A DNA stretch of 64,000 bases from Pelagomonas calceolata (Eukaryota). The notes under the pieces are model-generated. The model did no database searches, was not told the origin of the DNA, and was given only the letters and a program-made list of their open reading frames with translations. Below, in pieces: positions 1,158 to 60,276 of this stretch. The position numbers and the translations under genes were made by a program. Location: the NCBI GenBank assembly GCA_918797485.1, contig CAKKNE010000002.1, forward strand, positions 5,704,001-5,768,000. Reading direction: 5' to 3'. Numbering within the stretch: position 1 is the first letter of the stretch; each line of letters begins with the position of its first letter.

Positions 1158-1178
1158 GCTAGTGTGTCTTACCGCTAG
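1158..1178 (+). promoter_or_regulatory. Recurrent intergenic CTAG...CTAG motif (variant copy)
   Basis: GCTAGTGTGTCTTACCGCTAG, 130 bp upstream of the minus-strand dioxygenase start; matches the motif seen at 9161 and 58771. Confidence 0.5.
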
Positions 1179-1250
1179 AATCGCTGTGGAAAGATCAGAG
1201 CCGAACTCAATTTATCAGGGGGGAACAGAGGGGAAGGTCGAGCCCTGGCT

Positions 1251-3491
1251 TCAGAGGACCTCTTGGTCGCCCTGATGGATGCGGCACCACTCCGTGAACA
1301 GGCGCAGGTACTCCTGGCGGAGCTGGACCGTTCGGCGGCGGAGCACCATCGGGTGCGAGCGCTGCTGGAGCGCGGCGCGCGCCGCGAGGGCCCGGCGGCG
1401 GCGGCGCTCCGCGGAGCGGCGCAGGCGCTCCGTGCGCGGCAGCCGGCGGTACGGCGTCTCCGGCTGCATGGCGGGCCCGGCGGGCCGTGGCCGCAACGTC
1501 GGCCCCGTCGTGCGCGGCGGCGGCGTCTGCGGAGCTTCCTCTGCGGCCGGTGGCTCGGCGCGCGGGCGGCGGCGCGGCGGCGGCGGCGGCGGTGGCGGTT
1601 CGGTCTCCTCCTCCTCGGGCGGGGCAAAGGGCGGCGGCGCGTCGTCGTCCTCCTCGGGCGGCGCGAACGGGGCCGGCGCCTCCTCCTCTTCGACCGGAGC
1701 GGGCGGCGCCGGCGGCGCCTCGTCTTCTTCGACGGGCGCCGGCCGGCGCGGCGCCTTGCGCTTCGCGCGCTTTCTGGGCGTGGGCGGCGGCGCGGTGTAG
1801 ATCTCCGGCGGCGGGCGGCGCGGCCGCGGCGGAGGTCGCGCCGCGTCTTCGACCGGCTGCGCGCGGGGCCGGCGGCGCGGCGTTTTCGGCGCCGGCGGTG
1901 CCTCCTCTTGAACCGGCGCGGGCGGCCGGCGGCGCGGCGGCGGCGGCGGCGCCTCCTCCTCTTCCACCGGTGGGGCGAAGGGCGGCGCCTCCTCGTCGTC
2001 CTCGACCGGTGGGGCGAAGGGCGGCGCCTCGTCGTCCTCGACGACCGGCGCCGGGCGGCGCCGCGGCGCCGGCTTGTCGGGCGTCACGCGCCGCGCGCGC
2101 GGCGGCTTGCGCGGCGTCGCCGGCTTCTTCGTCACGCGGCGCGCGTACTCATCGGCGACGACGCGCGCAAAGTCCGCGGACGTGTACGCGGGCTGCGAGT
2201 TGCGGGAGCGGCGGCGTGGCGGCCCCGCCGGCGCCGGGGCCTTGCGCTTGGAGCGCTTTTTGGGCGTCGGCGCGGGCGGCGGCACGTAGAGCTCCGGCGG
2301 CGGGCGGCGCGGCCGCCGGGGCTTCGTCGCCGGCGTGACGACGGCCGGCGCCTGCGGCGTTGGGACGTCGTCGTCGTCGTCGTCGGCCGCGGGCGGCATG
2401 GGCGCGTCCTCGTCCTGCGTGACGGGTTCGGCCGGCGGAAACCAGCTCGGCGCGGCCGGCGGCGGCGCCGCGTCGTCCTGCGAGACCGGCGTGACGGGCG
2501 GCGGCCCGCGCCCGACGAGCTCGACCGGGTCCGCCCGCTGGTCGAGCGTCACGGTGCGCTCGCCGAGGCCTTGGGGCTGCTCCGGCAGCGGCGCGCCCGT
2601 CTCCATCGTCACGGCGCGCGGCCCGAGGCCCGCGTTCTCCTTGCCCGTGGCCGGCGCCAGTAATGCCTCAGGCACGACCTCCTCCTCTTCAATCTCTTCG
2701 ACGACCTCGCCGCGCAGCAGCGCCCGCATCTCATCCCCACAGGGGCCCGGGTCCGGCTCGTTCTTCTCCTTCTCGAGCCAGGCCTCGTCCCACGCGCCCT
2801 CGACCAGCACCTTGCGCACGCGCCACGACTCCTCGTCCGGCAGGCGCTTCTTCGCGAGCTCTGCCGGCGTCCCCTGCTTGCTCGCATCATCTAAAATCCG
2901 CGCCGACGCCGCGCGCGCCGTCGCCTCCGGATCCGCGCCCGCGTCGAGCATCTCGTCCTCGATCTGCCGGCCCGTCTCGACGACCAGGGACATGACCGTC
3001 ACCGGCCCCGCGTAGGCCGCCGCCACGTGCACGGGCATGCGGTCGAAGGCGTGCTCTCGGGCTTGCAGGTCCCCGCCGTGGCGGATGAGGCAGGCCACGG
3101 CGGCGAAGTTGTCGTACTCCGCCGCGAGATGGAGCGGCGTGAGCCCCGACGGCGTCGCGAGGTTCGGGTCCGCGTTCAGGCCGTCTTCTTCATCGAGTAA
3201 TAACTCGAGCACCGGCGCGAGCTTCGGTCGCACGGAGCAGGAACAGACCAAAGAGAAGACGTCGGCGCCTAAGCGCGCGGCGTCGCGCGGCGGCTGGGGC
3301 TCAATTCCTAGACGACGCCACTCGCCGATGAGCCGGGCGGCTCGCGTCTCGACGTCGTCGGGGCAGCGGTCCACCAAAGCTCTCAATCTCGCGCCGGGCG
3401 GCGCGTCCTTGCTCACCTTGGCTTTCTTGCCGCCGTGGCGCTGGCGCTCGAGGATGGGATCTAATGCTTGGCGTTGGCGGTACATGGCCAT
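1251..3491 (-). CDS. Ankyrin-repeat protein with long Pro/Arg/Glu-rich low-complexity C-terminus
   Basis: GLTPLHLAAEYDNFAAVACLIRHGGD and RMPVHVAAA ankyrin motifs, followed by internally repeated PPFAPPVE and PPPE(L/I)Y..PPxTPxKRxKRKAP segments. Confidence 0.7.
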   Translation of the reverse strand: MAMYRQRQALDPILERQRHGGKKAKVSKDAPPGARLRALVDRCPDDVETRAARLIGEWRRLGIEPQPPRDAARLGADVFSLVCSCSVRPKLAPVLELLLDEEDGLNADPNLATPSGLTPLHLAAEYDNFAAVACLIRHGGDLQAREHAFDRMPVHVAAAYAGPVTVMSLVVETGRQIEDEMLDAGADPEATARAASARILDDASKQGTPAELAKKRLPDEESWRVRKVLVEGAWDEAWLEKEKNEPDPGPCGDEMRALLRGEVVEEIEEEEVVPEALLAPATGKENAGLGPRAVTMETGAPLPEQPQGLGERTVTLDQRADPVELVGRGPPPVTPVSQDDAAPPPAAPSWFPPAEPVTQDEDAPMPPAADDDDDDVPTPQAPAVVTPATKPRRPRRPPPELYVPPPAPTPKKRSKRKAPAPAGPPRRRSRNSQPAYTSADFARVVADEYARRVTKKPATPRKPPRARRVTPDKPAPRRRPAPVVEDDEAPPFAPPVEDDEEAPPFAPPVEEEEAPPPPPRRRPPAPVQEEAPPAPKTPRRRPRAQPVEDAARPPPRPRRPPPEIYTAPPPTPRKRAKRKAPRRPAPVEEDEAPPAPPAPVEEEEAPAPFAPPEEDDDAPPPFAPPEEEETEPPPPPPPPRRRPRAEPPAAEEAPQTPPPRTTGPTLRPRPAGPAMQPETPYRRLPRTERLRRSAERRRRRALAARAALQQRSHPMVLRRRTVQLRQEYLRLFTEWCRIHQGDQEVL

Positions 3492-4035
3492 GGTTTTTTA
3501 GCGCTCGGGGGCGCTCCGCGCTGGCCGCGGTGGCGTTTGGCGCGCTAAGTGCTCACCGCACTTCTTTTTGTTACGCGGCGAGGGCGGACCGGAGACACGC
3601 GCGGCGGCTCAGGGCAGTTCTTGTGGTCCTTGAGAACGCGGCGCGCTGGTCCCCGTGTTTGTTGGAGCCTCAGGCGCGTCGCTGCAGCCCTGTCTTTTTT
3701 GGCGCTCCGTGAAGCGCTAAGAGAGCCAAATCGGGTTCGGGGGCGCAGGCCTGCTCAGAGCGACACGCACGCTTGGGGGACACCCGACATTCAAATCTAG
3801 TTGACCAGTGCCGCCTGCGCTAGCGAAAGGAAGCAAAACCGCCGCCGCGCCCCGCGCGGGACGCGCTCTCTCTGTCAATCTGCGAGGATCTCGCCGAGGT
3901 GCGTCGACGGCGCACCCGGCGACGTTCCAGCTTCGAGGAGGGCGCACTTCCCGACGCCATCGACGCGAAGCAACGCCATCGACGCGTCGGCCTCACGAGA
4001 ATGAATCATTGAGTCACTGACACAAGAAATTACGT

Positions 4036-4776
4036 CTATACTACAACCACCATCCAGCTCAGCCACGAGTAGAAGAGGAAGACCGGGTACACCGCGAGCG
4101 CCCGTCTTTTGGAAGGGATGACCTCCTCGACGAACAGCACGGACGCGCGCGTCGCCCAGACCAGCGCCACCGCCGCCGTTACGAAACGCACGAGCCGCGA
4201 CACGCCGACCATGGTCTCGACGACGCCTATGGTTAAGCGAGCGGCACAGACGGGAAACGCGCTGTAGCCTAATACACACACGGATTGTGGTAAGGACAGC
4301 TTCCCTCCCAACAGCTGGGCGTTCACGCTGACTACTATAGCGCCGACCCAGAGCACTACGAAGACCAAAGAAAAGACGACCGCAGCATTCGCATAACTCG
4401 ACCCCGTCGCGAGCGACGTCGCGAGCGTCAGCGAGACTACCAAAGGCCCCCACAAATCCCAGTCCCTCAGATGCTCGATGGTCTCGGACCCCGACGTGTA
4501 GGGCATGAGCACGAGCAGGAGCTTGCCGCCCACATGGCTCGCGTCCCTCCAGAGCGTCTCGCCGACGGTTTCATCTAATGTGCCACTCGTAAAAGCTACG
4601 GGCGGCACGCCGTCGGACCGCGGCAGCTCGCTGCCGAAGCCGCCGCTCATGGACTGTTTTGGCCTCGTTTGTGTAGGGGGGTCGTCGAACGCGTTGTCGT
4701 CATTACTAAAGAAGGCTTCCGCCGCTTCGAGCTCGCCGACGGCGGACTTGATGGAGGGGTCCTCGAAGGCGCTCAT
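4036..4776 (-). CDS. YIPF6: Yip1-family Golgi membrane protein (YIPF6-like)
   Basis: TLDETVGETLWRD, LRDWDLWGPL, NAQLLGGKLS..QSVCVLGYS, RRALAVYPVFLFY; five hydrophobic segments. Confidence 0.85.
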   Translation of the reverse strand: MSAFEDPSIKSAVGELEAAEAFFSNDDNAFDDPPTQTRPKQSMSGGFGSELPRSDGVPPVAFTSGTLDETVGETLWRDASHVGGKLLLVLMPYTSGSETIEHLRDWDLWGPLVVSLTLATSLATGSSYANAAVVFSLVFVVLWVGAIVVSVNAQLLGGKLSLPQSVCVLGYSAFPVCAARLTIGVVETMVGVSRLVRFVTAAVALVWATRASVLFVEEVIPSKRRALAVYPVFLFYSWLSWMVVVV

Positions 4777-5069
4777 CGTTTCGTCGCGAGCGCTGCGGAT
4801 TTTTTTGTGCTTTTTTTTTGCCTGCTGGGCTCTCCTTGGTGAGATGTCCTATGCTGCAGGAGTTTGTGCTACGCTGGCGCAGCTCTCGCTGGGATGCTGC
4901 CTGTCACAGCGTGTGCCTGTGTCGTCCTCGCAATGCCTGCCTTGGGCCTCGAGCAGCCGACGCCTCTCGATGGAGGCTCGGTGGGGGTCACCAGTCCTTG
5001 CGATTCTTGCTCGCGTGCGCACGGGATACGTCGCTAGATGCGAAGACCCAGCGGAGTCCTCTCGCGCGG

Positions 5070-5092
5070 GCTAGCGTACATAATCACACTAG
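5070..5092 (-). promoter_or_regulatory. Recurrent intergenic CTAG...CTAG motif (diverged copy)
   Basis: Reverse complement reads CTAGTGTGATTATGTACGCTAGC; lies between the divergent YIPF6-like and trigger factor genes. Confidence 0.4.
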
Positions 5093-5245
5093 TAAGTCGA
5101 CGCACTGCAACCCCTTGAGCGCTGCTTGAGCGACGTGCCTCGACGTTTGCTACGCGTCGGAGGCCGTTGAAGAGTCCAGTGAGTGAGTGCACTGCCGCGT
5201 GACGCCGGCTCGCCAAGCGCACTCGTAGCGCAAACAAGCAGAGCG

Positions 5246-6790
5246 ATGGCACGCCGGGTTGTGCTGCTCGCGGCCGGCGCCGTGGCGTTCTCGCCAAGCG
5301 CGCCGCTGGCGCAACCCAGATTAAGGCTAAGCGCCACGGCGACCGACGTCGAGACGGACAAGGAGGAGTCCTGCGTCTCCTTCACCGTGCCGGTCCCGGC
5401 CTCGCTCACGAAGGCCGCGTACAAAACAGCCGCCGGCGAGATGGCGCAAACCAGAAAAATTCCGGGCTGGCGCCAGAAGGACTGGAAGAAGGTGCCCATT
5501 GGGGTGGTTGCTGGCGCGGTCGGTGCCCAGACTCTGAAGAGCTTGGCCATCGAGAAGCTCACGGAGACGGAAGTACATAGCGCGATCACGGGACTCGGTG
5601 TCGAAGTCGTCGGCCAGGCCCAGCTCGTCGGCGACGTCGAGGAGATCATGCAGACGTTCACGCCGGGCGAGCCGTGGGACATGCGCGTGAAGATCGACAT
5701 TTGGCCGGAGGCCGTCTGGTCGCAGCCCTGGGACGACGGGACGTTGGCCGTTGAAGTGGAAAGAGAAGCCAAGGACCAGTCGACGCGAGACAAGGCCCTG
5801 GAGGCCCTTCGAGAGAGGTATTGTGATATTGAGGACGCGCCTGCCGACCACGTCGCGCGGGAAGGTGATGTTGCGATGGTCGACATCGATGGGTATTTGA
5901 GAGATGAAAACGGGAACCGAGCGGGCGAGTTACCGATCCAGGGCGCCGTCGGCGGGGACGACCTGGAGTTGATCCTCGAGCCGGGCAAGTTCTTACCTGG
6001 CGTGGTGGAAGCTTTGATCGGCAAGAAGGCCGGCGAAAAAGTCACGGTGCCCGTGGACTTCCCGGAATCGCGACAGTATCGCGAGGAGCAGCCGTTGGCC
6101 GGCGTCAAGGCTGGCTTCGACGTCACGATTAATGCCGTACGGTTACGGTCCTTGCCGGAACTCAATGACGCGTTCGCGGGGAAGATCCGACCTGGGTTGA
6201 CATTGGATGAACTCAAACAGGAGGTCGAGAACACGGTCGGCGGCCAGGAGGAGGACAAGACCACGGATACGGTTCATAAGGAGCTCGAGAAGGCTTTAGC
6301 TGAAAGGTTGACGTCTCAACTACCGGAAGCTCTCGTAGTAGAGTCGGCCAAGCAGCGCTTCGCCGTCATGCTCGCGGAGATGCGCAACAGTGGGACGGAC
6401 GACGCGGCCCTGAAGCAGATGATCTCGCCCGAGGGCTTCCAGAAGTACCTGAAGGTCGTGCGGCCCAAGGTCGTTACTGAGTTACGAGGAAAATTAGCCG
6501 TCGAGTCCATCGGCCGCTCCATCGGTGTCCAAGCCGACGAGCAGCAGGTCGAGGAGCAGATGGAGCTCGTGAAGCGCCAGTACGAGCAGCAGGAGGCCGA
6601 TAGTGGGGCCGCGTTCAACGAGGAGAAGGCGCGCGAGAAGGTCACCTACGAACTACAGCGAGTGGCCGTGCTCGACAAGGTCCGAGATCAGGCGAAGATC
6701 ACCTACGTCGACGCGTTGTCGCCGGAGGAGACGGCGCGGAAGATGGGCATCGACGTCGACAACCTGCCGCCCGAGGTGCAGCTCGGCTAG
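5246..6790 (+). CDS. tig: Plastid-targeted trigger factor (ribosome-associated chaperone/PPIase)
   Basis: Signal peptide ending AVA-FSP (ASAFAP-like bipartite signal); IPGWR ribosome-binding loop variant; FKBP-like domain (GDVAMVDIDG, FLPGVVEALIGKKAGE, V.FP); LPELNDAFA. Confidence 0.85.
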   Translation: MARRVVLLAAGAVAFSPSAPLAQPRLRLSATATDVETDKEESCVSFTVPVPASLTKAAYKTAAGEMAQTRKIPGWRQKDWKKVPIGVVAGAVGAQTLKSLAIEKLTETEVHSAITGLGVEVVGQAQLVGDVEEIMQTFTPGEPWDMRVKIDIWPEAVWSQPWDDGTLAVEVEREAKDQSTRDKALEALRERYCDIEDAPADHVAREGDVAMVDIDGYLRDENGNRAGELPIQGAVGGDDLELILEPGKFLPGVVEALIGKKAGEKVTVPVDFPESRQYREEQPLAGVKAGFDVTINAVRLRSLPELNDAFAGKIRPGLTLDELKQEVENTVGGQEEDKTTDTVHKELEKALAERLTSQLPEALVVESAKQRFAVMLAEMRNSGTDDAALKQMISPEGFQKYLKVVRPKVVTELRGKLAVESIGRSIGVQADEQQVEEQMELVKRQYEQQEADSGAAFNEEKAREKVTYELQRVAVLDKVRDQAKITYVDALSPEETARKMGIDVDNLPPEVQLG

Positions 6791-6931
6791 GCTCTTTGTT
6801 TCCCTCCCCTGGTTTAAAGGAACGCTAGTTTACATGGTGGGGGGAGCGGAAGTCTACCCGGTCAACTTCGCGTGCGGGGGGGGGTGAGCTTACCAGACGC
6901 GGCGCCTTGCGTCCGGTCGGGCTTGGAGAAC

Positions 6932-7349
6932 CTAGAGCGTGGAGCACGAAGGAATCTCCGTCCCGGGATCAACACCACCGTAGGGAGGATTAAAGTCTTC
7001 GGGGACCAGACCCTCGCCGGAGCAGCAGGCGCACTTGAGCGCTGTAGAAGAGACCTGTGCACAATCAACCAGTGAGTCCGTGATTTAGCAGCGGCAGAGA
7101 CGCGCCGTGACAGTTTTTGATTTATGCACTGGTAGAGACCGGCGGGTCGACGGTATCGTCCGCCCATATGATTTGAATACAGAGTCCGGGTTCGCCGTGG
7201 CTGCTTTCGCAGGCTTCACCCAACTCGTTGCAATCCGCATTGTAGTTCAACGGCTCAAAGGCCGACACAATCTCGCACTCGTCGCGTTGCGTGCCGCCGA
7301 AGCCGTAGGCGGTGCCGAGGCAGAGGGCGAGAATGAGGGCGCGAGCCAT
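6932..7349 (-). CDS. Small secreted cysteine-rich protein, 110 aa, two exons (7349-7140, 7054-6932) split by an introner
   Basis: Signal peptide MARALILALCLGTAYG. Removing intron 7139-7055 (GT...CACAG) bypasses the TAA at 7122 and continues ...DPP|VSSTALKCACCSGEGLVPEDFNPPYGGVDPGTEIPSCSTL*. Confidence 0.6.
7055..7131. mobile_element. Introner copy D (77 bp, degenerate); predicted intron 7055-7139 on the minus strand
   Basis: Ends CTGTGCACAATCAA / TTGATTTATGCACTG; TSD GAAGAGAC (7047-7054) vs GTAGAGAC (7132-7139), 7/8 match; subterminal AATCAACCAGTGAGTC and ACGCGCCGT shared with the other copies. Confidence 0.75.
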
Positions 7350-7756
7350 ATTTTCGGGTTGCCTGCGACCGGGATGAGGGTTTGACCACGCGTCCTGTCC
7401 GGCAACACGCCTCTGTTGTCGTGCCCCCCTCAGGCCCCTCTCCAACCACTGAACGGCGCGCGAACGCGCTGAATTGTATCGTGGCCGATCGCGGTCGACC
7501 CGAAGATAGATAGGAGGGTTTTCTATGTTTTGTCAGTACTCTGAAACTCTTGCGTTTGCGTGTTTTGGGCACTACACTCGTCGAGCAAAGCTGTGAAATG
7601 CTATTAACGTGCGGGCTTTTAACGCGACGTACTTCCCCCCCCCCCCCCCCAATACCGCTCTGCGGCCAATAGGACGGATGCATGCAGGCCAGGAGGCGGG
7701 CGCGTCGTCGGGCGCCCGGACTCGCGCGCGCGAAGGTAAACGAAAACACGACTTAC

Positions 7757-9004
7757 TCACCACCGCCGGTACACGCGCAGCGGCGCGCTCCCCCAGGACG
7801 CGTCCACGCGGACCTCGCCGACTTTCGTGAAGGGGGGCCGGTCGTCGAGGTGCGCGCTGAAGTCGACGACCGTCGCGTCCGAGTCGAGGCTCGCCTCGAG
7901 GACCTCGGCGTAGGCGTCGCAGAGCTCGGGGCCCCAGCACGACGACGCGACGATTACCAAAGTGGCGCCCCGCACGATGCGGCCGATGTCCGGGTCTCTG
8001 ACATCTAACACGCGAAACGCGCCCGCGTCGACCCCGATTTCAGAATGAGTGATGGCGAGGGACCGCGCGACGGCCACGGCCGGCTCCATCACGTCGACGC
8101 CTTTGACGTCGAAGCCCAGCGCCGCCGCGTAAAAACAAAGCGTGCCGGTCGAGGACCCCAATACCACGCACGCGCCGCCTTTATTACGCGCGTCCTCCAG
8201 GCAGGGCGCCGCTAGTAATGAACAGAAGGCGGCGAACGACGTCGTGCCGAAGGACAGCGCCTCGCGCTCGTGCCTTCCTTCACCGCCGCCCGTCGCCCCC
8301 GTCAGCCGGAGCTGCTCAAAAAATAAAGCGCGCTGGAACGTCCACGACCGCTCCAAAACGCGGTGCTGCTCGATCAACGCACCCAGCGCCTCGAGCGCCG
8401 CCGCCCGCGCCGGCAGCCGCGCGGCGAGCCACGCGGCGCAGCGCGCGTCGCGCGCCGCGCGGCGCCGCCGCGCCGCCGCGACGTCCACGAGCTCGAGCGG
8501 CGCGAGGCGCCGCTCCAGCTGCGCCGTCGTCCGCCGCAGCCGCCGGTACGCGCGGCTCCGCTCGCCCGTCATGATTGTGTCGAGTTCCTTCCTCACATCA
8601 AGCCGCGCGTCGAGCGCCGCCCGCGCGACGACCTTGCAGCGCGCGCGGACGTTGCAGAACGGGTCTTCGCTCGCGCGCCGCGCCGTCGCCGCGACGCCCG
8701 ACAGCCGGTCCAGGAGCCGCTCCAAGGGCCGCAGCGCCTGTTCACCTTTCGGCGCCGGCGGCCGCGGCTTCGGCGGCGGCGCGGCGGCCTTCGCGGCCTC
8801 CTTCTTATATTCGAACGCCATGCGCACGCGTGCCTGGCGTCGCCGCTTGATGCTCATGACGACGGCGACCATCCGCGCCGGATCGTCGGCCGCGCCTTTC
8901 AGGATGGCGAGCTCCTCCGGTGCCGTCTGGGCAGCTTTTCTGGCCCTCGTGTCGGGCTCGGGGGCGACCTTGGGCTCGGCCTCCAGAGACGGTTCGGGCT
9001 CCAT
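7757..9004 (-). CDS. Coiled-coil protein with C-terminal class I SAM-dependent methyltransferase-like domain
   Basis: C-terminal LSFGTT, VVLGSSTGTLCFYAA, VKGVDV, FRVLDV, VRVDASW resemble Rossmann methyltransferase motifs. Start placed at the ATG of MEPEP. Confidence 0.6.
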   Translation of the reverse strand: MEPEPSLEAEPKVAPEPDTRARKAAQTAPEELAILKGAADDPARMVAVVMSIKRRRQARVRMAFEYKKEAAKAAAPPPKPRPPAPKGEQALRPLERLLDRLSGVAATARRASEDPFCNVRARCKVVARAALDARLDVRKELDTIMTGERSRAYRRLRRTTAQLERRLAPLELVDVAAARRRRAARDARCAAWLAARLPARAAALEALGALIEQHRVLERSWTFQRALFFEQLRLTGATGGGEGRHEREALSFGTTSFAAFCSLLAAPCLEDARNKGGACVVLGSSTGTLCFYAAALGFDVKGVDVMEPAVAVARSLAITHSEIGVDAGAFRVLDVRDPDIGRIVRGATLVIVASSCWGPELCDAYAEVLEASLDSDATVVDFSAHLDDRPPFTKVGEVRVDASWGSAPLRVYRRW

Positions 9005-9160
9005 GAGGCGGCAGGAGGGCGGCCGAAGGAATTGCCAAAGCTTGCGAAAAGGCTGCCTCTGCGACGATAGATGCCCGGGGATTTCAAAAGCTTGCAAAAA
9101 GGGCTGCCCCGGCTGCTATTGTTCGCGCTACGGCCGCGGCGAGGCGAAAAGCTCGAGGAT

Positions 9161-9184
9161 GCTAGTGTCTTACAGGCCGCTAGC
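9161..9184 (+). promoter_or_regulatory. Recurrent intergenic motif GCTAGTGTCTTACAGGCCGCTAGC
   Basis: 24-mer identical to 58771-58794; lies between divergently transcribed genes. Confidence 0.6.
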
Positions 9185-9396
9185 TAGCTATTCGCAAAGC
9201 CGACAAAAAAGGGGCTAGCCGTGAAAGCCGCGGCTGTACGGCGGTTCGAATATAATACGTGCTTGTACTTGTGCTACGCACAGCCTTGTACAAAAGCACG
9301 CTGCGCAAGAGCCAGCGAAAGCACCTGCACAGCTCCACAGCCTCCACTGGCGCTCGCGGGTCTCCGGCGAGATAGCAAAAAGTCGCATCAAACGCA

Positions 9397-10263: not shown

Positions 10264-10375
10264 GATTTGAGAACCGTGATAGCCGTCGTCGCCTCCTCGG
10301 GAGCCAACACCCGGGGCGAACGGCGTATGGCCCACGGTATGGGGGCCCTAGCTCTAAGCAAAGAACGGACTAGGA

Positions 10376-13915: not shown

Positions 13916-14710
13916 CCTCTATCGGTCGGCGGGGGGGCTGCCCCGGGCTCGGCGCCGGTGGTGGCTTTGGATCTAGCGCGGCGTGCGCGCGAGGCTGCCT
14001 TCCGCCGCGAGCGCTCTCGCGCAGAGTGCTTGCTCTTCGTCTGGGCCGTGGGCGCGCCTCGACGGCGTAAAAGTGCCGGGCGCTGGGCCGCCTAGCTCTA
14101 GTGCCGGGAGTTACAAGGCCCGTGCGGGTTGCGCCACCGCCGCCCGCGTGCGCCCTCCCGCACGTCGTGGGGCCGGGGCCGCGGCGCCTCCATCAAAAGT
14201 CCGAGGTCCCCGCGACGCCTCGCCCGAGAGCCTCCCCGACGCCCAACCGCCGGGGGACCGCGCGCGGGGGAGGGAACCCAAGCAAGCCTCAGCGACAAAA
14301 GACTTACACCCTACGTAGCGCCACGCGCGGACCTGCGCGCGTGTCGCAGCGATTTTGACCCGCGCCCCCTCGGTAATGGGGACGGCCCCGTTTTGGCGGC
14401 GCGCGCGGGTTGATTAGACGAGCGGTCGCTCTGGCAACCGTTTACATAAAAGTTGGACGTACGACCATATAAGGAGGTCGCCATCTGCTGGGGTTCAGTT
14501 GCGAAGTTGTATCAAGGAGGACGCGGCGCCGCGGACCTGCGCGCGACATATGTTATGGTGAACAACGGACGCCGCGGCTCCACGAACAAGACAAAGGTCG
14601 TCGGAGTTTAATTAAAAACTAAGGCATCACGGTGGATAGAGTCATGTAGTATACAAAATTTCGTCACGCGACAGATGAAAAAAAACGAAGACGCCGCTCC
14701 ACGAACCTCA

Positions 14711-35423: not shown

Positions 35424-35445
35424 GCTAGCGTTAAGACACTCTAGC
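35424..35445 (-). promoter_or_regulatory. Recurrent intergenic CTAG...CTAG motif (variant copy)
   Basis: Reverse complement reads GCTAGAGTGTCTTAACGCTAGC; between divergent genes. Confidence 0.5.
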
Positions 35446-36606: not shown

Positions 36607-36758
36607 GTAATTTTTTCGTCGTCGTCTTCGTCCCGTGTCCACCGGACGCGTAGTGATAGCCTCGAGTCACATCGCGGTTGCGTGTGTGGATTGATTATTT
36701 TCGATTATTCACGCTTCTAGCACTGGTTGGGGGCCCTTGGTATATATATCTATGATTC

Positions 36759-36782
36759 CTAGTGTCTTTACAGGCCGCTAGC
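36759..36782 (+). promoter_or_regulatory. Recurrent intergenic CTAG...CTAG motif
   Basis: CTAGTGTCTTTACAGGCCGCTAGC, ~320 bp upstream of the ERD2-like start. Confidence 0.6.
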
Positions 36783-38810: not shown

Positions 38811-38825
38811 CTTAGTATACGAAAC

Positions 38826-41688: not shown

Positions 41689-41712
41689 GCTAGCGGCATG
41701 TAAGACACTAGC
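41689..41712 (-). promoter_or_regulatory. Recurrent intergenic CTAG...CTAG motif
   Basis: Reverse complement reads GCTAGTGTCTTACATGCCGCTAGC (1 mismatch to the 9161 copy), 160 bp upstream of the kinase start. Confidence 0.6.
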
Positions 41713-49919: not shown

Positions 49920-50102
49920 CTTTCGCTGCGGCTCGCGCTTGCCCAGCAGGTCAGTGGCTCTCCCGGTGCGGAGGGGCTTTGCGCAGCGGGACTTGTGCCG
50001 CCAGCCGGCTATAGTATTGGAAACAGATAAAATACAGCCGCAAATCACTTCAATGGTGCATTCCACCCTGAGTTTGCTAAGCTCCGCAAAAAGCTGTGAT
50101 TA

Positions 50103-50125
50103 CTAGTGTCTTACTGAACGCTGGC
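50103..50125 (+). promoter_or_regulatory. Recurrent intergenic motif (variant copy)
   Basis: CTAGTGTCTTACTGAACGCTGGC between divergent genes starting at 49919 (-) and 50213 (+). Confidence 0.5.
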
Positions 50126-50212
50126 TCGGCGTGAAACGCGGAGCTTCACCGCCTGAGTACTACGCCCGTAGCCCATTTAGGAACCCGCCCAGGGCCTTCA
50201 GAGAGCCCCACC

Positions 50213-53877: not shown

Positions 53878-53892
53878 GTTACACATCCCTTA

Positions 53893-55518
53893 TTAGTCCG
53901 GGTCCCAGGGTCGGATGATGTCCCCGTCTTTATAGTCGTCCTTCAGCGCGGCGAGCGCTGCGCCCAAGTCCGGCTTGGCGCCATAGGGGTGCAGCTGCTC
54001 GTCGTCGTCCGAGGAGTCGTCGGACGCGGTCTCCTCCGACTCCGACTCGCTGGAGCTCTCATCGTTGTTTGCGTTGTGATAAAGCACCCGGGCGCCTTGC
54101 ACGCGCATGCTTCCGTCGGGGCCGCGCACGGTTGTGACTGGCACGGCGCCCGGCGCCACCCTTGGTTTGGGCTCGGTGTCCGTGGGCTCGTCGTCGTCGT
54201 GCCGCCGCCGCAGCCGCCGCATGGCGTCCGGGTCCGCCCGAAACAAGTGCGCTGCCAACTCCCTGCCCAGCCGCCGCTCCCTCGCGTCTCGGACCTCCTG
54301 CGGTACGTTCGCCGCGGCCGCGGCCTTAGCCTCGCTCGCTTCGAAGACCTCGGCGTTGTTCCGCAGACACGCTTTGAGGCCCTCGGCGTCATCGACGGCG
54401 AATCGTCTTCCCCCAAGCTCGACGGTCGTGCGGTCCTTCGCTTCCTGTCGAGCCTCGCTCGCTTCCCGCCGGGCCGTCGCGGCGAAGGCGTTCAATTTCA
54501 TGAGCTCTTTCTGAACCTCGCGGGCCGCGTCCTTGACCCGCTGCTCCGCGTCGCGTCGCGCCCTTCGGTCCTCGTTGCCCATCCGCAGCCGCTCGCCGAG
54601 GCGCTTGGCGACGACCTCACCGCTCGCCCCGTCGCCCGGTTTTGCGATGTCATCCAAATCTTCCTCTGTCACGCCGAGGAGCTGCGCGAGGCGCCGCCGC
54701 AGCTCGCGCCCTTGCTCATCTCTGTCCCAGCGCGACTTTTTCTCCTTTTCGCGCGCTTCCAGCGCGTGCCCCAGCATTCCCATCCCTACCCAGGTCGCAA
54801 ACAGGACGATCGCCAGCAGCGCGTAGCGCCCCGTCAGGGCCGCCCACATACCGCGCGGGTCCGGCCACGTCCTGTCGCGCACGCGGCGCACGACCGAGCA
54901 CAGGAGCTGCGTGTAGACGGCGCAGGCGGCCCAGAGCGACCGGCCGATCGACGCTTCCAGTAAACACGTCCCGAAGCCGACGGCCCACAGGTACATCACG
55001 AAGAGCATACAGTACCCCAGCACGGGCCAGTCGTCCCTATCTACGGTCGCCGCGAAGAGGTAGGACGCGACGTACAAACATTGGACCGTGCCGAAGGCCG
55101 TGCCCTTGTTCGCGCCGCTGTCCATGAACGAATACTCGAGGTGCTGGCCCAGGGGCACGATCAGCCAGATCCTCAGTAATAAGGGAACCAAGCCGAACGA
55201 CCGATACAAAAACACGGGGTACGCGAAGATCGAGATCGTCTGGAACCACTGCACGCCCATGAAAAGCAGCTCGATCCAGGGCGGGCAGCCCGCCGGCGTC
55301 CACCATCTCACGCCATTGGTCTTCGGGAGCGCCACGCCGCAGACGAATTCGTCCGGCGGCTCCTGCCGGAATCGTTCCTTCATCTTCTCGTCGCTGTAGT
55401 AGTCGTCGTCGTCGTCCGCGATTCTGTTCAGGCGATGCCGCAGGCCCTCCAGCTCCCTCAGCCGGCCATCATTCACTCTCTCCTGCATTTCTCGCGCGAG
55501 GCGATCTCCGCGGTCCAT
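53893..55518 (-). CDS. Hypothetical multi-pass membrane protein with C-terminal coiled coil
   Basis: 541-aa ORF with several hydrophobic segments, then a charged helical region and an acidic tail. Confidence 0.6.
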   Translation of the reverse strand: MDRGDRLAREMQERVNDGRLRELEGLRHRLNRIADDDDDYYSDEKMKERFRQEPPDEFVCGVALPKTNGVRWWTPAGCPPWIELLFMGVQWFQTISIFAYPVFLYRSFGLVPLLLRIWLIVPLGQHLEYSFMDSGANKGTAFGTVQCLYVASYLFAATVDRDDWPVLGYCMLFVMYLWAVGFGTCLLEASIGRSLWAACAVYTQLLCSVVRRVRDRTWPDPRGMWAALTGRYALLAIVLFATWVGMGMLGHALEAREKEKKSRWDRDEQGRELRRRLAQLLGVTEEDLDDIAKPGDGASGEVVAKRLGERLRMGNEDRRARRDAEQRVKDAAREVQKELMKLNAFAATARREASEARQEAKDRTTVELGGRRFAVDDAEGLKACLRNNAEVFEASEAKAAAAANVPQEVRDARERRLGRELAAHLFRADPDAMRRLRRRHDDDEPTDTEPKPRVAPGAVPVTTVRGPDGSMRVQGARVLYHNANNDESSSESESEETASDDSSDDDEQLHPYGAKPDLGAALAALKDDYKDGDIIRPWDPD

Positions 55519-55893
55519 CTGTGTGGGGCGACGCGCCTTTGCCTTGTGCTGTCGATTTTGCCTTGGGTTTGGTCGGCTGCCCCAGCAGTACCCGTGAAAC
55601 TCGTGTGCTTGAAGCTGCCCACAACAAACACGTAGGCTGCCCACAGGCTGTGTTGAGCTACAACACGGGGCGCCGTCGCGTCGAAGCTGGAGAACCTAGT
55701 ATGTCTATTGACACTAGCTCGATGCAGCTCGCTTTTGCATTGCAGCGCTCCTCACACTATATATCAGCAGTTGTGAGCACGCAGGAGTGGGTTTTCGTTG
55801 CATTGAAAAGCGATCCTGTGAGTTGTGGTCGAATCGAGCGAAGACCTAGCAAGCAAACACTCATCTGCCCTGCACACTGCTGCAGCGCATAAA

Positions 55894-56694
55894 ATGCGGC
55901 CGCTATTGACGCTCGCCGCAGCAATGCTCCAAAGCTCTCGTGCGCTGCAGCCCCTCGTGCAGCGCTGCTGCGCGGAATCGCTCGCGGGCTGCGCCGGCGG
56001 CCTCGCGAAGCAGCTCGCCGTCTACCCGCTCGACCGGGCCGCGACGCGATTGGAAACCAAGAAGGGCACCAAAGCCACGAACGTACAACAAGCCTACCGC
56101 GGCGCCGGCGTGTTGATGCTCTTCGCGCTGCCCTACGCCATCGCGTTCCACGTGCCGTTCGTCCTCGTCGAGAACGCGCTGCCCGTCGGCGACGCGGCCG
56201 CCCGAGCGTCTATCGCGGGCTTCCTGGCCGCGCTCGCCGCGGCGCCCGTTGGCGTGCCCGCGGAGGCCTGCAAGCGCCGCGTCCAGCTCGGCGCGCCCGT
56301 GAAAGAAGCATTGGGTGGCGGCCGGTCGCTCTACGACGGCTTCTGGGCGACGGCGGCGCGCAACGTGCCTTATAATGCGGCGGCCTTCGGGGCCTATCGT
56401 TTTTTAGAAAGGCGAAGCGTCTCTCCACTTTTATGTGGCGTCGGCGCGGGCGTGGCCTGCGCGGTCGCGACGCACCCCTTCGATGTGGTGGATGCGCGGC
56501 AGCAGACGGCGCGGACGTCCGCTTCCGCGGCGCCGCCGCCGAGCTTCTTCGCCCTGGAGACGTGGGCGTCGCTCGCGCGGGATCCCGGCGCGTTAATAAG
56601 GGGCCTCCTGCCGCGCGTTTTTGCATTGGCGCCGGGCACGTGGCTGTTTTTTGCGGTTTTTCGGCCCGTGCGGGATAGGTTAATGTCTGTATGA
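55894..56694 (+). CDS. Mitochondrial carrier family protein (SAM-carrier-like) with signal-peptide-like N-terminus
   Basis: Three Px[D/E]xx[K/R]x[R/K] motifs: YPLDRAATR, VPAEACKRR, HPFDVVDAR. Also LYDGFWATAARNVPY. Confidence 0.85.
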   Translation: MRPLLTLAAAMLQSSRALQPLVQRCCAESLAGCAGGLAKQLAVYPLDRAATRLETKKGTKATNVQQAYRGAGVLMLFALPYAIAFHVPFVLVENALPVGDAAARASIAGFLAALAAAPVGVPAEACKRRVQLGAPVKEALGGGRSLYDGFWATAARNVPYNAAAFGAYRFLERRSVSPLLCGVGAGVACAVATHPFDVVDARQQTARTSASAAPPPSFFALETWASLARDPGALIRGLLPRVFALAPGTWLFFAVFRPVRDRLMSV

Positions 56695-56704
56695 ATTACG
56701 AGGC

Positions 56705-57982
56705 CTAGTCTGTACCGGGAAGCCCCAGGAACTGCGTCAGCGAGTCGCCCCTCCGATGACTCCGCGTCGCGCGCGTCGCCGACTGGAGCTCGTCGGCCGG
56801 CAACGCTATTACAAGATCAACGTTCCGCGCTACTAAAATCCCGGTCCTTCGGTCGCGCAGCTCCCGGGCCCAGCGCACGGCGTCAACAGCTTTCGGGCCG
56901 CCGAAGAAGCGAGGCACCGCCCCGCATCCGATAAAGTCGATTAGATAAGGTGCGAACGCGTGCGATAGAGGCACGCGCCAGTCGGACGAAGCCCGCGATA
57001 ATATACTGCACTCGTTCCTTTCTAGGATCTGGATCAACCTCTCGACGTCCGTGTATTGCTTCTGGTCCTCGACCAGATGGGCGTCGTAGGCCCGCAACAG
57101 CTCCTCGGCGCCGTGTGGATGCAGCTCCGTCTTGCCTGAAAAAGTGATGGGCAGATAGGCCGTCCCGCGCGGCTTGCCTATCCTCCTCAACCCGTCCGCG
57201 AGGATCTCGGGTCTTACCAGATCGGCGAAGGCGCTGCCACACACTAAATCAAAGGAGCCGAAGGCGTCCGCGTCGAGCGCATCTCCACAAACCACGGCTA
57301 TTGAACATCGCACTCCTCCTATATCACAGATCCCGTGTCTCAATCTTTCAAAACTCCGAGAGGCGAGCGGGTCCGCGTCCGCGGGCCACGGCGTGTTTTG
57401 GATCTGGAGCTTGGCGAGACCCTCGGCCAGGGCGTCGCGGTCCCTATCGACGGCCAGGTATTCGAAGGTCGCGAAGCCGGCGGCTTTCACGGCTTTCGCT
57501 ATCACCGGTAACAAGGAGAGCGTCCCAGCTCCCAGGTCGACGCACCGCGGCGGATTACCAGTCGCGAGGCGCTCCGTTAGCACGGCGAGGGCCTCTTCAG
57601 AACGGGACGCATCATCAATAGCCGCCTTCTCCCGAAAATAGGCGAGGCGGTCCACGGGCGACGCGGCACAGCACCCCAGGGCCGCGAGCGCCGCTCTCCT
57701 CACGTCGCCGTTCTGAATAGAGACGGTGCGCGCGAAGGCCTCGCGCGCGGGCGCGCGCGACGACAACAAAATGCCTTTGGGCCGGGGCATGTCGACGGCC
57801 GCCGCGGCGCCGCTCACCTGGATGTCGATGGGCCGCCAGCCGCAGGGCAGGGCGTCGAGCGGCCACGTCCCTTGCGCGTGCGTGACGCCGTCTCGTTCGT
57901 TTCCGCGCAGCGGCGTTGTGTTCAGGTCGTGGCTGTCTATTAAGAGTTGGTCGTCGTCATTTGCGAGCAGGTGGGCGGCCAT
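56705..57982 (-). CDS. Class I SAM-dependent methyltransferase-like protein
   Basis: KAAIDDASRS, CVDLGAGTLS (motif I), YLAVDRD, GDAL, FDLVCGSAFADLV, YLPITFSGKT, SDW. Confidence 0.7.
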   Translation of the reverse strand: MAAHLLANDDDQLLIDSHDLNTTPLRGNERDGVTHAQGTWPLDALPCGWRPIDIQVSGAAAAVDMPRPKGILLSSRAPAREAFARTVSIQNGDVRRAALAALGCCAASPVDRLAYFREKAAIDDASRSEEALAVLTERLATGNPPRCVDLGAGTLSLLPVIAKAVKAAGFATFEYLAVDRDRDALAEGLAKLQIQNTPWPADADPLASRSFERLRHGICDIGGVRCSIAVVCGDALDADAFGSFDLVCGSAFADLVRPEILADGLRRIGKPRGTAYLPITFSGKTELHPHGAEELLRAYDAHLVEDQKQYTDVERLIQILERNECSILSRASSDWRVPLSHAFAPYLIDFIGCGAVPRFFGGPKAVDAVRWARELRDRRTGILVARNVDLVIALPADELQSATRATRSHRRGDSLTQFLGLPGTD

Positions 57983-58187
57983 TTGTGGTCTGGCACTCGC
58001 GAGCGACTGAGGAGAGGCCTGGCAGCACAGCCGAGTGCAATCCGCGATGCGGAGAAGAAGAGCTGGAGAAACAGTGTCTGGTGCAACCGTTGGTCCTGAA
58101 GAGTGCTGGCGCACTTGGAACAAGTTTTTTGTGCAATCACAAGGCCTACTCGCGCTATGCCAAAGCGTTTTTGCCGCGGATTAATCC

Positions 58188-58209
58188 GCTAGCGGAGTAA
58201 GACACTAGC
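58188..58209 (-). promoter_or_regulatory. Recurrent intergenic CTAG...CTAG motif
   Basis: Reverse complement reads GCTAGTGTCTTACTCCGCTAGC; between divergent genes. Confidence 0.6.
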
Positions 58210-58343
58210 AACAAAGCAAGCTAAGGCTGCCAAGCATAAAACAGGGCGGACGGCGCGCTATTGTTGCCTTAGCGACAACTGCTCGCCGCCGAGTTGCCTC
58301 TAGCACCGCTGTCCAAAGTACAGCTGCGTCCAGCATCGCTACG

Positions 58344-58688
58344 ATGACAGCGAGCTCAAATGGGAGTGGTGCGGCAGACAGCGGAGGAGAGGCGCCCGCG
58401 AACACCGTGCAAGTAGGGGGCTGGACGCTCAGCGCTGATCTGTCGCCGGAGGCGATGGCGCAGGTTCAGGGCTTGATCAGCGGCATGCAAAACGAGTCGT
58501 CGGGCCCCGCGCGGCAGGCGGTCGAGCGGCCCGACGGCAGTATAGAGTTTCCAGAGCGGAGCGACGATGATAAGGCCGCGGCGGACGCGGCCTTCGCGAA
58601 GCTAGTCGCGCAACATCCGGGTGCGCGCGAGCTTTGCCCCGGCGTGTACGCCGTGCCGCCCGACGCCGTCGTGCGCGACGCCGAGTAA
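58344..58688 (+). CDS. Small hypothetical protein, 114 aa
   Basis: ATG-initiated ORF with coding-like codon use, flanked by two copies of the promoter motif. Confidence 0.45.
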   Translation: MTASSNGSGAADSGGEAPANTVQVGGWTLSADLSPEAMAQVQGLISGMQNESSGPARQAVERPDGSIEFPERSDDDKAAADAAFAKLVAQHPGARELCPGVYAVPPDAVVRDAE

Positions 58689-58770
58689 GATGTTCGACGA
58701 AAGACGAGTAGCACGCACCACCGGATGCACACAATGCCTAGGCTGGAGAGGCGTCGCACCGGACCTGCTT

Positions 58771-58794
58771 GCTAGTGTCTTACAGGCCGCTAGC
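58771..58794 (+). promoter_or_regulatory. Recurrent intergenic motif GCTAGTGTCTTACAGGCCGCTAGC
   Basis: Identical to 9161-9184; 157 bp upstream of the sulfotransferase ATG. Confidence 0.6.
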
Positions 58795-58950
58795 TCGTCG
58801 GCCGCCCGCGAAAGACCTTTAGACGCTGCTTTAGACGCTGCAAGCGCGCGTTCTAAACTCACTGGATCTATCCTCTCCCGCGCACCATCCGTTTTGTGCC
58901 GCGGCCCACCGCTAGGAGACCAGCAGTCGCTGCCCATCACCTCTGAAGAG

Positions 58951-60009
58951 ATGATGAAGCGCGGCGCATTAATCGCAACACTGCTGGCCAGAGCCGCGGC
59001 GGATTGTACGATAGACGACACGACGCCCGTCACAATAATAGCGGGCGCCAGCCACGCCGGCGCCGACACGCTCCACGATTCGTTACGAAAGGCCTTGGCC
59101 CTGCCGGACCGGAAGCGCAACGAGGTCCACCATTTTAATGATGTAGCTTCTTATGGGAAGGGCAACGACCATTATTGGCAGAGCTTGGGCTGCACCGGCC
59201 AAGTAATGGTCGACGAAAGCCCGGGCTACCTCGCGCATAGCGTCGCACTGTTGAGGGCCGCGTCCCAAGTTCCTAGAGCGCGCTGGGTCGTGTTACTGCG
59301 GGAGCCCGTGGAGCGCGCGCTGTCGCACTTCATGCACCTGCCCCGGAAACAGGGCGGCGGCCAGGGCTCTCTGAAAGGTTTTATGGAGGCCATTGAGGAG
59401 GAACGGTCCTGCATCGACGCGGCCTTGCACGCGCGCGCGGCCCACGGCCACGCCGACATCACGCACGAGTCGGGAGACGCCCTCTACCCGCGCCTGGCGG
59501 CGAGGTATGCTTTTGAGCACTGCGCGGATCATCTGCCAGGGGGCGGGCGCCAAGCTAGGGCTCATGGGTCAGCACATTTCGGCAAGGAGCACGGGCTGCT
59601 GTCCTTATCTTTATATGCTCCTCAGCTTGAGCATGCAGCTAGGATGGCCTCGAAGATGGACCTCGCGAGTCCCTTGGTCGTCGTCTCGTCCAAGGCGTTC
59701 CACGACGACGCCGCCGGCACCGTGTCTGCCATTGTGGGAGCGTTGGGTTTAGGCTTAGGTAAAACGAGCAACGCGGCGCCGGCGTTCGTGGACCGGCGGA
59801 CGGAGCTGGACGCGGCCGCGGTGGAGGCGCTTGACTTATTATTTGAGCATCCGAACTGCGCGCTCGCCGCCGTCGTCAACAACCGGACGCTCGTGCCGCA
59901 TGCTATTGGATTGGAGCACGACGCGGCGTGGCTTCCCTTAGATATGAAGTGCAACGCGCACGGCAAGGCCGTGCACCCGCAGCCGCGCGTCGACCGCGAG
60001 GAGCTCTAG
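58951..60009 (+). CDS. Secretory-pathway sulfotransferase-like protein (heparan sulfate 3-O-sulfotransferase-type fold)
   Basis: Signal peptide; NEVHHFN, DESPGYL, 3'-PB motif VLLREPVERALSHF, SLYAPQLE. The 5'-PSB loop is atypical. Confidence 0.7.
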   Translation: MMKRGALIATLLARAAADCTIDDTTPVTIIAGASHAGADTLHDSLRKALALPDRKRNEVHHFNDVASYGKGNDHYWQSLGCTGQVMVDESPGYLAHSVALLRAASQVPRARWVVLLREPVERALSHFMHLPRKQGGGQGSLKGFMEAIEEERSCIDAALHARAAHGHADITHESGDALYPRLAARYAFEHCADHLPGGGRQARAHGSAHFGKEHGLLSLSLYAPQLEHAARMASKMDLASPLVVVSSKAFHDDAAGTVSAIVGALGLGLGKTSNAAPAFVDRRTELDAAAVEALDLLFEHPNCALAAVVNNRTLVPHAIGLEHDAAWLPLDMKCNAHGKAVHPQPRVDREEL

Positions 60010-60253
60010 GTGTCCCTGATTAAGTCTTTTTTACGTCACGGTGCTAGGATCAGTGGCGGCGGGCGCGCGCCGCGTCTTTCATCACGGAATACCTCCTTCT
60101 GGAATCCTCGTAACGTGCGGGGCGAAAAAACAACTCACGTCGCGGCGATGGCGCGATCAGGGCTATATTGTTACGGTGATAGGACTAGCGGGCGCAGCCC
60201 CTGGGGAAAGACATCGCACATCGCCGATTCCTCAAATACGGCTCCGGCGTGGA

Positions 60254-60276
60254 GCTAGCGGCTGTAACACACTAGC
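60254..60276 (-). promoter_or_regulatory. Recurrent intergenic CTAG...CTAG motif
   Basis: Reverse complement reads GCTAGTGTGTTACAGCCGCTAGC; 175 bp upstream of the CDC50 ATG. Confidence 0.55.

What the first reader, a model, noticed from the sequence alone, without database searches (positions are those of the whole stretch)
1158..60276. Conserved ~22-24-bp bipartite motif GCTAGTGTCTTAC-N-CGCTAGC in most promoter regions
Seen: at least 10 copies, at 1158, 5070, 9161, 35424, 36759, 41689, 50103, 58188, 58771 and 60254. Copies 9161 and 58771 are identical over 24 nt and 41689 differs by one base. Weaker variants occur near 3797, 14098 and 55696. There is one copy per intergenic region, in either orientation, about 90-320 bp upstream of a start codon and often central in divergent promoters. 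I saw none in coding sequence or convergent spacers. The two CTAG palindromes lie about two helical turns apart. Inference: a lineage-specific, orientation-independent core promoter or nucleosome-positioning element for a general DNA-binding factor. I do not recognise it as a described element.
Basis: partly seen in the sequence, partly recalled or inferred. Interest (0 to 1): 0.8.

Follow-up and report, generated by a model that had tools for sequence, protein, structure and literature searches.

The report
Reversible promoter element of Pelagomonas alga
A 30-letter DNA signal sits in about four in ten promoters of the ocean alga Pelagomonas calceolata, in either orientation and often just before where transcripts begin, and is likely the landing site of an unidentified protein that opens these promoters.

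Summary
Real and genome-wide. All ten copies are at the stated places (0 expected in shuffles). The window is Pelagomonas calceolata, and 122+ further copies came from marine metagenomes. The full element is about 30 bp: TGCTT-GCTAGTGTCTTAC-(2-5 nt, mostly AGGC)-CGCTAGC-T. It occurs in 10 of 19 promoter-containing gaps of the window and 7 of 24 in unselected metagenome flanks, against 0 of 34 convergent gaps and 0 in 153 kb of predicted coding DNA. 'Most promoters' is therefore about 40%. The CTAGs lie 16-19 bp apart, not two turns. Stranded RNA reads begin 20-26 nt beyond the element's edge at three strong copies of both orientations; a fourth gave 115-129 nt. Substitutions avoid the CTAG cores. 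There is no target-site duplication, flanking homology or stable hairpin, which argues against a transposon remnant. Syntenic pinin promoters carry it at the same offset in opposite orientations. Best reading: the site of a lineage-specific general promoter factor, working like yeast Reb1/Abf1 but at the TATA position; the binder is unidentified. I found no description in ten literature searches.

The parts
1158..1179 (+). Element copy (22-nt core) in a tandem gap, 129 nt upstream of a 2OG-Fe(II) oxygenase gene on the - strand
5070..5093 (-). Element copy (24 nt) in the divergent gap Yip1 / trigger factor; Yip1 RNA 5' ends lie 115-129 nt away
9161..9184 (+). Element copy (24 nt, modal sequence) in a divergent gap before the prenyltransferase alpha gene
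9207..9207 (+). RNA 5'-end pile-up, 23 nt past the 9161 copy (listed in 2 of 4 runs)
35424..35445 (-). Element copy (22 nt) in a divergent gap before the CBS-domain gene
36758..36782 (+). Element copy (25 nt) in a tandem gap, 320 nt before the ER lumen receptor gene
41689..41712 (-). Element copy (24 nt) in a tandem gap, 160 nt before the phosphotransferase (APH) gene; homology to L004 starts at this copy and runs 95 nt on one side only
50102..50125 (+). Element copy (24 nt) in a divergent gap
55695..55718 (+). Borderline copy in a divergent gap; - strand RNA 5' ends at 55658-55667 (28-37 nt away) and at 55615
58188..58209 (-). Element copy (22 nt) in a divergent gap
58231..58235 (+). RNA 5'-end pile-up in all 4 runs (one sample), 22-26 nt past the 58188 copy
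58344..58688 (+). Small expressed gene (114 aa, no Pfam match; poly(A) end at about 58702) that separates the 58188 and 58771 promoters
58771..58794 (+). Element copy (24 nt, modal sequence; the full 30-mer with leader spans 58766-58795) in a tandem gap
58814..58817 (+). RNA 5'-end pile-up, 20-23 nt past the 58771 copy (listed in 1 of 4 runs)
60254..60276 (-). Element copy (23 nt) in a tandem gap, 174 nt before the CDC50 gene

Best explanation
The element is a 30-bp promoter signal found in about 40% of Pelagomonas calceolata promoters in either orientation, and it is likely the binding site of a lineage-specific general promoter factor that would clear nucleosomes and set transcription starts about 20-26 nt beyond its edge. 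Shown: the sequence, its restriction to gaps with a gene start, orientation symmetry, position-specific conservation of the two CTAG cores, a core length of 22-25 nt, and RNA 5' ends 20-26 nt from three strong copies. Inferred: protein readout by two CTAG-reading modules joined flexibly (a dimer or tandem domains), plus contacts on the TCTTAC middle and the TGCTT leader; nucleosome clearance; and service to one or both flanking genes. The protein's identity is a guess. An AP2-type domain is my first candidate (about 0.25), because GCTAGC is a described ApiAP2 site and the species has AP2-domain genes.
For: Context: 0 of 80 metagenome seed copies lie in predicted CDS and 71 of 80 have a predicted gene start within 700 nt. 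Unselected flanks: 7 of 24 promoter gaps, 0 of 26 convergent gaps, 0 in 153 kb CDS (Fisher p=0.003). Orientation: gene starts lie on the leader side 56 times and on the tail side 52 times, medians 173 and 192 nt, p=0.09. TSS anchoring: 5' ends lie 22-26, 20-23 and 23 nt from the edge, while the distance to the ATG varies 134-212 nt; one copy is on the - strand and two on the + strand. No TATA-like word within 60 nt of 5 of 5 mapped ends. Constraint: of 25 mismatches in 27 copies not selected for a perfect match, 17 fall on the two outermost bases and 2 on the eight CTAG bases (chi-square p about 1e-10). Homologous promoters keep the element at 96% while the 45 nt beside it are 51-67% alike, against 45% for random sequence (both partners were selected for the element). 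The syntenic pinin promoters L021 and L049 hold it at the same offset in opposite orientations, and so does L092 against L055, L091 and L037. Reb1 positions nucleosomes regardless of motif orientation (PMC8163841, passages).
Against: No binding or chromatin data exist here. The 5' ends come from ordinary poly(A) RNA-seq of one sample, and similar pile-ups occur inside genes (57575, 57626, 5730, 6006, 6313). withheld 13 further rows. At 5070 the ends lie 115-129 nt away, and at 55695 one cluster lies 80 nt away. Genes without a clear copy are expressed at similar depth and can have sharp 5' ends (ankyrin gene, 3688-3698), so the element is not required for transcription. In L047 it is degraded although the flanks are about 85% like those of L122. 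The element carries about 27 bits without its middle block against about 14 needed to find some 4,500 sites, and mismatches are over-dispersed among copies (variance 3.35 against 2.14; 0 of 2000 permutations reach it). Both points hint at copying as well as selection. Convergent gaps are short: by hand, about 4.7 copies were expected in their 4.5 kb at the promoter rate, and none was seen.
Confidence: 0.7

Rival explanations
1. The element is a promoter site that also acts as a recombination joint: thousands of near-identical 30-mers are copied or recombined between promoters, which homogenises the sequence and swaps gene-plus-half-promoter modules.
For: About twice the information needed. One modal 24-mer makes up 27 of 129 seed copies. 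Mismatches are over-dispersed. In 6 comparisons homology is one-sided and ends 0, 0, about 26, 61, 80 and 91 nt from the element (window 41689/L004, L034/L059, window 60254/L076, L092/L055, L037/L091, L021/L049). Both orientation flips come with unrelated DNA on the far side.
Against: Homology runs through the element in 4 pairs (L008/L069, L055/L091, L047/L122, L126/L128). Promoter DNA diverges fast anyway. Several shared blocks are dispersed repeats or paralogues, not orthologues. Leader and spacer quality are uncorrelated (rho 0.03, p=0.71), and the exact 30-mer occurs 1 time in 80 against 0.85 expected under independence.
Confidence: 0.13
2. It is a promoter-associated replication origin or origin-licensing element, like the G/C-rich origin class of Pichia pastoris.
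For: Long, information-rich, intergenic and next to transcription starts; such origins exist (PMC3945215, abstract).
Against: One copy per 6 kb in the window is far denser than fired origins usually are (own knowledge). Its restriction to gaps with a gene start and the offset to 5' ends fit transcription better.
Confidence: 0.06
3. It is a neutral footprint or remnant of a promoter-seeking transposon (MITE end, CTAG-duplicating insertion, or Helitron 3' end).
For: Sharp borders, a modal master-like sequence, CTAG at both ends, and two close double copies (L045, L086).
Against: No target-site duplication: the best excess was 10 against 2.7 of 151 copies among 1,120 offset combinations. No conservation beyond the 5-nt leader. 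Of 143 left halves, the 4 flagged as solo were longer or variant full copies, and 1 of 53 right halves was truly alone. Decay is strongly non-uniform.
Confidence: 0.05
4. It works as DNA or RNA structure (a 7-bp hairpin or cruciform) rather than by protein readout of sequence.
For: GCTAGTG and CGCTAGC can pair, and a flexible loop would explain the 22-25 nt length (one search shows the stem in 4 of 6 folds).
Against: Folding z-scores run from -1.93 to +1.03 in 6 folds. Of 14 copies changed at the outer pair, 1 is compensatory, 2 are wobbles and 11 break it. The loop sequence is conserved. The element lies upstream of the mapped RNA 5' ends.
Confidence: 0.04

Closest known systems
Yeast general regulatory factor sites (Reb1, Abf1, Rap1)
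   Same: Sequence-specific site in a large share of promoters, including bidirectional ones; orientation of the motif does not matter (PMC8163841, passages; PMC5052057, abstract and opening).
   Different: About 30 bp with a 16-19 bp variable distance between half-sites and about twice the information needed; it lies only 20-26 nt from RNA 5' ends at three copies; the sequence is unlike the yeast motifs as I recall them; no protein shown.
TATA box and oomycete INR core promoter elements
   Same: Fixed position just upstream of transcription starts (about -45 to -21), in a stramenopile; the INR spans the start site in Phytophthora (PMC3597505, passages).
   Different: Works in both orientations, is G/C-rich and bipartite, has no TATA word, and does not overlap the start; 'CTAG' has 0 occurrences in the main text of the Phytophthora motif paper.
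ApiAP2 sites GCTAGC (Toxoplasma AP2XI-5) and TAGCTA (Plasmodium AP2-O)
   Same: The right half is an exact GCTAGC in 17 of 27 unselected copies (counted); both are described promoter sites (PMC6631176, passages); the P. calceolata annotation lists 17 AP2-domain rows in a file cut when stored.
   Different: Those are 6-bp sites of stage or cell-cycle regulators in apicomplexans; this is a 30-bp two-part element in housekeeping and other promoters. A hexamer match is a lead, not a test.
Pichia pastoris G/C-rich origin motif
   Same: Long motif associated with transcription starts (PMC3945215, abstract).
   Different: Far higher density here; origin activity untested.
Long housekeeping-promoter motifs of animals (ZNF143/THAP11, DREF, M1BP, RFX X-box with variable spacer)
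   Same: Long or two-part sites near starts of housekeeping and bidirectional promoters (recalled, no call).
   Different: Different sequences and lineages; not compared here.

Membership tests
General regulatory factor site (Reb1/Abf1/Rap1 kind) | Same site in a large share of promoters, absent from coding and convergent DNA | tested here: met
   17 of 43 promoter gaps, 0 of 34 convergent gaps, 0 in 153 kb CDS
General regulatory factor site (Reb1/Abf1/Rap1 kind) | Orientation-independent action | tested here: met
   56 against 52 gene starts per side; 5' ends at the same offset for both strands; flipped at syntenic pinin promoters
General regulatory factor site (Reb1/Abf1/Rap1 kind) | Fixed distance to the transcription start or +1 nucleosome | tested here: inconclusive
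   20-26 nt at 3 strong copies, 28-37 at a weak one, 115-129 at a fourth strong one; RNA-seq ends of one sample, not CAGE
General regulatory factor site (Reb1/Abf1/Rap1 kind) | Bound protein that creates a nucleosome-depleted region | not testable with these tools
   Needs footprinting, MNase or pull-down
TATA box | TATAWA sequence, one orientation | tested here: not met
   No TATA word upstream of 5 of 5 mapped ends; both orientations used
TATA box | Position 25-35 nt upstream of the start | tested here: inconclusive
   Element centre 31.5-36.5 nt from 5' ends at 3 copies, not at 2 others
MITE / non-autonomous DNA transposon | Target-site duplication | tested here: not met
MITE / non-autonomous DNA transposon | Terminal inverted repeats around a shared internal sequence of tens to hundreds of bases | tested here: not met
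   Only a 7-bp imperfect repeat around 8-11 nt; no longer elements with these ends among the held loci
MITE / non-autonomous DNA transposon | Uniform neutral decay of copies | tested here: not met
   17 of 25 mismatches on 2 of 15 positions
Helitron 3' end | Insertion between A and T or T and T, so that the terminal CTAG (recalled) is followed by T | tested here: not met
   Right CTAG position followed by C in 20 of 27, left CTAG preceded by G in 17 of 27; target rule from PMC10288648, passages
Helitron 3' end | Subterminal hairpin and homology extending upstream | tested here: not met
ApiAP2 / AP2-domain binding site | GCTAGC core and AP2-domain proteins in the organism | tested here: met
ApiAP2 / AP2-domain binding site | Binding by an AP2 domain | not testable with these tools
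   No genome or binding data held
Promoter-associated replication origin | Origin activity or ORC binding | not testable with these tools
   none
Known RNA family | Rfam match or tRNA | tested here: not met
   0 Rfam matches at gathering score and 0 tRNAs in the window

The most novel reading that the evidence does not exclude
Pelagomonas has replaced the TATA box at thousands of genes with a reversible 30-bp element that fixes transcription starts on either side and doubles as a plug-and-socket joint for recombination. Gene modules can then be duplicated or swapped at the element and land with a working promoter, while recurrent copying keeps the element near one master sequence.
Probability: 0.17. 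Interest if true: 0.82.

Novelty: new variant of a known kind. Interest (0 to 1): 0.58.

Why it matters
Core promoter logic in stramenopile algae is poorly charted in the papers I could search. This gives a concrete, long, easily scored element in several thousand promoters of an abundant open-ocean alga (about 4,500 by extrapolation from 17 of 43 gaps and the published gene count). It predicts transcription starts, should improve gene annotation and the binning of Pelagomonas contigs in metagenomes, offers a ready part for expression constructs, and makes the search for the alga's general promoter factor a one-oligonucleotide pull-down. A TATA-position element that works in both orientations with a variable half-site distance is unusual and would be structurally interesting.

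Tried and rejected
The title pattern with one N: 0 matches. Whole-genome scan: no genome is held for this window, so copy number is extrapolated. Viral contigs: 0 matches with two patterns. Prokaryote genomes: 6 matches in 596 Gb, all within 2.2 kb of a contig end; two of them are the same locus in a bacterial and an archaeal bin, and 105 kb fetched around five of them held one further weak copy. I read them as contaminating algal DNA and drew no support from them. A first gene predictor was over-fitted and was dropped; its replacement recovered all right-half window genes on the right strand when trained on the left half. Target-site duplication, extended hairpin and solo ends: negative. Window 60254 against L076 looked like an orthologous flip but the shared block is a dispersed repeat, so it is not counted as orthology. 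Earlier findings of the scan: none. Three papers whose ids I recalled were not held. Presence in Aureococcus or other pelagophyte genera could not be tested; 4 of 7 locus proteins found in the collection clustered with named P. calceolata proteins, and 3 of the 10 submitted were not in it.
Full report
Observation. The title pattern with one N finds nothing, but all ten listed copies are in the sequence. With a two-block consensus they have 0-2 mismatches, a level never reached in 20 block-wise dinucleotide shuffles. A matrix trained only on metagenome copies separates the ten (21.1-41.2) from every other window site (14.6 or less) and from shuffled promoter gaps (99th percentile 17.0, maximum 24.7 in 475). 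That training set was itself fetched with a window-derived pattern, so it is only partly independent. The CTAGs start 16-19 bp apart. The variants at 3797 and 14098 cannot be told from chance, and 55696 is borderline.

Organism and spread. A window protein is 100% identical to a protein labelled Pelagomonas calceolata, and five of six looked-up ORFs are NCBI proteins on a 6.14-Mb contig, which confirms those start codons. The 128 loci fall into 119 unrelated groups. Proteins of L005, L009 and L022 cluster with P. calceolata proteins (4 of 7 found, 10 submitted). Homologous locus pairs are 67-95% alike, so the element spans diverged Pelagomonas lineages or gene families. Other genera were not testable.

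Anatomy. Flank profiles of 128 copies show a leader (T 0.46, G 0.60, C 0.50, T 0.72, T 0.80), a trailing T (0.57) and no strong preference beyond. The unspecified spacer still prefers AGGC (28 of 82 24-mers). Core lengths in 27 copies not selected for a perfect match were 22 (7), 23 (3), 24 (11) and 25 (6); none of the selected copies was 21 although the pattern allowed it.

Genomic context. With a gene predictor checked on held-out window genes, 0 of 80 seed copies lie in coding DNA and 71 of 80 have a gene start within 700 nt: 28 divergent, 20 tandem, 23 with one side unknown. Three fell in predicted convergent gaps, 2 had only a 3' end and 4 were unclassified. L081-L128 were left out of this count because only short flanks were held. 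In flank gaps not containing the seed, copies with 3 or fewer mismatches were in 5 of 12 divergent, 2 of 12 tandem and 0 of 26 convergent gaps, and 0 in 153 kb of predicted CDS. In the window the counts are 5 of 8, 5 of 11 and 0 of 8, three of the eight convergent gaps being too short to hold a copy; some window gene models are my own reading. Gene starts lie equally on both sides of the element (56 against 52).

Transcription starts. Four stranded poly(A) runs of one sample were laid on 54900-61500 and 1-14800. RNA 5' ends pile up 22-26 nt from the 58188 copy (4 runs), 20-23 nt from 58771 (1 run) and 23 nt from 9161 (2 runs), while the distance from element to start codon varies from 134 to 212 nt. 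The weak 55695 copy gave 28-37 nt and one cluster at 80 nt; the 5070 copy gave 115-129 nt. No cluster was listed for 1158 or 60254. The other four copies were not covered. Similar pile-ups occur inside genes, 13 rows were not shown, and such ends can lie downstream of true starts. Loose read ends at 58765 and 58794 come from other loci that share only the 30-mer, which confirms more identical copies in the same organism. Genes without a clear copy are expressed at similar depth.

Selection or remnant. In the 27 unselected copies, ten of which are the window's own, 17 of 25 mismatches hit the two outermost bases and 2 hit the eight CTAG bases. There is no target-site duplication, no family of solo ends, no unusual folding energy and no compensatory change to speak of. 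This points to protein readout under purifying selection. Two results do not fit simple independent selection: the information content is about twice what site-finding needs, and mismatches are over-dispersed among copies. Against copying, leader and spacer quality are uncorrelated and the exact 30-mer is no commoner than independence predicts.

Homologous promoters. L008/L069, L055/L091 and L034/L059 keep the element at 96% amid neighbouring DNA that is 51-67% alike; both partners were selected for it. L021 and L049 are syntenic: they share the pinin gene and the end of the next conserved gene, and the element sits at the same offset after allowing for a short duplication in the leader region, but on opposite strands, each with its own leader. 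L092 is flipped against L055, L091 and L037, which appear to be paralogous. In L047 the element is shortened and degraded. In six comparisons homology stops 0-91 nt from the element and the far side is unrelated; in four it runs through.

Mechanism. Most likely a lineage-specific factor with two flexibly joined CTAG-reading modules binds the element, keeps the promoter open, and sets starts about 20-26 nt beyond the edge facing a gene (inferred, 0.7). It would work like Reb1, which positions nucleosomes regardless of motif orientation (PMC8163841, passages), but it occupies the TATA position; no TATA word was found at 5 of 5 mapped ends. GCTAGC is a described ApiAP2 site (PMC6631176, passages), and the species' annotation lists 17 AP2-domain rows, so an AP2 protein is my first guess. 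Rivals are a recombination joint (0.13), an origin element (0.06), a neutral transposon remnant (0.05) and a hairpin (0.04).

Novelty. Ten searches of the held library found no description. The 12-mer and its reverse complement occur in one unrelated paper, seen as a listing only. The P. calceolata genome paper has 0 occurrences of 'motif', 'promoter' or 'intergenic' in its main text (passages) and no motif description in the supplement rows shown, one file being unreadable and one cut. The pelagophyte pangenome preprint has 0 occurrences of 'motif' or 'promoter' in its main text; its supplements were not seen. Subscription papers, including work on Aureococcus nucleosomes and introners that I recall but could not open, may bear on this. 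Verdict: a real, probably undescribed promoter element; a new variant of a known kind; interest 0.58.

Noticed in passing
window 60166-60233; L022, L044, L072, L076 (twice): A dispersed 70-100 bp repeat beginning TGTTACGGTGCTAGGACTAG lies between a gene's 3' end and the element in six tandem gaps, always reading in the sense of the upstream gene. It may be a small mobile element end or a terminator or insulator.
   Followed up: partly
L005, L009, L022, L047, L065, L086, L095, L098, 5-40 nt from the element's tail: A second companion motif with the core GCGGGAGCCCTGG, often towards a neighbouring gene's 3' end.
   Followed up: partly
window 9098, 13934, 46071, 60384 and metagenome promoters: The quasi-palindrome GGGCWGCCC is the top enriched 9-mer upstream of genes (20 of 148 regions against 1.0 expected; 0.93 per kb against 0.05 in CDS), in 17 of 99 promoters with the element and 3 of 49 without.
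   Followed up: partly
window 37689-37852, 40400-40608, 50637-50758: Related insertions of up to about 200 nt inside genes, also in L005, L011, L028, L029, L068 and L079; they fit the introner-length introns mentioned for this species. Splicing was not checked.
   Followed up: no
window 15331-34069: A very long gene with 78-bp and about 940-bp tandem units whose lengths break the frame, followed by laminin G, REJ and GPS domains: polycystin-like; the frameshifts may be assembly errors.
   Followed up: no
window 34050-34430: A tandem duplication of about 190 bp at the junction of two convergent genes, repeating the 3' end of the 34277-35086 gene.
   Followed up: no
window 14293-15088 (- strand): An expressed gene (Sm/LSm-like by recall, not scanned) with two alternative GT-AG introns at its 3' end sharing one donor (joints 14330 and 14534 to 14705).
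   Followed up: no
L126:100-390 and L128:250-540: The promoter around the element is identical over about 290 nt while the adjoining predicted gene differs at many sites.
   Followed up: no
L045:303-427 and L086:301-388: Two copies of the element within about 100 nt, facing each other in L045 and in tandem in L086.
   Followed up: no
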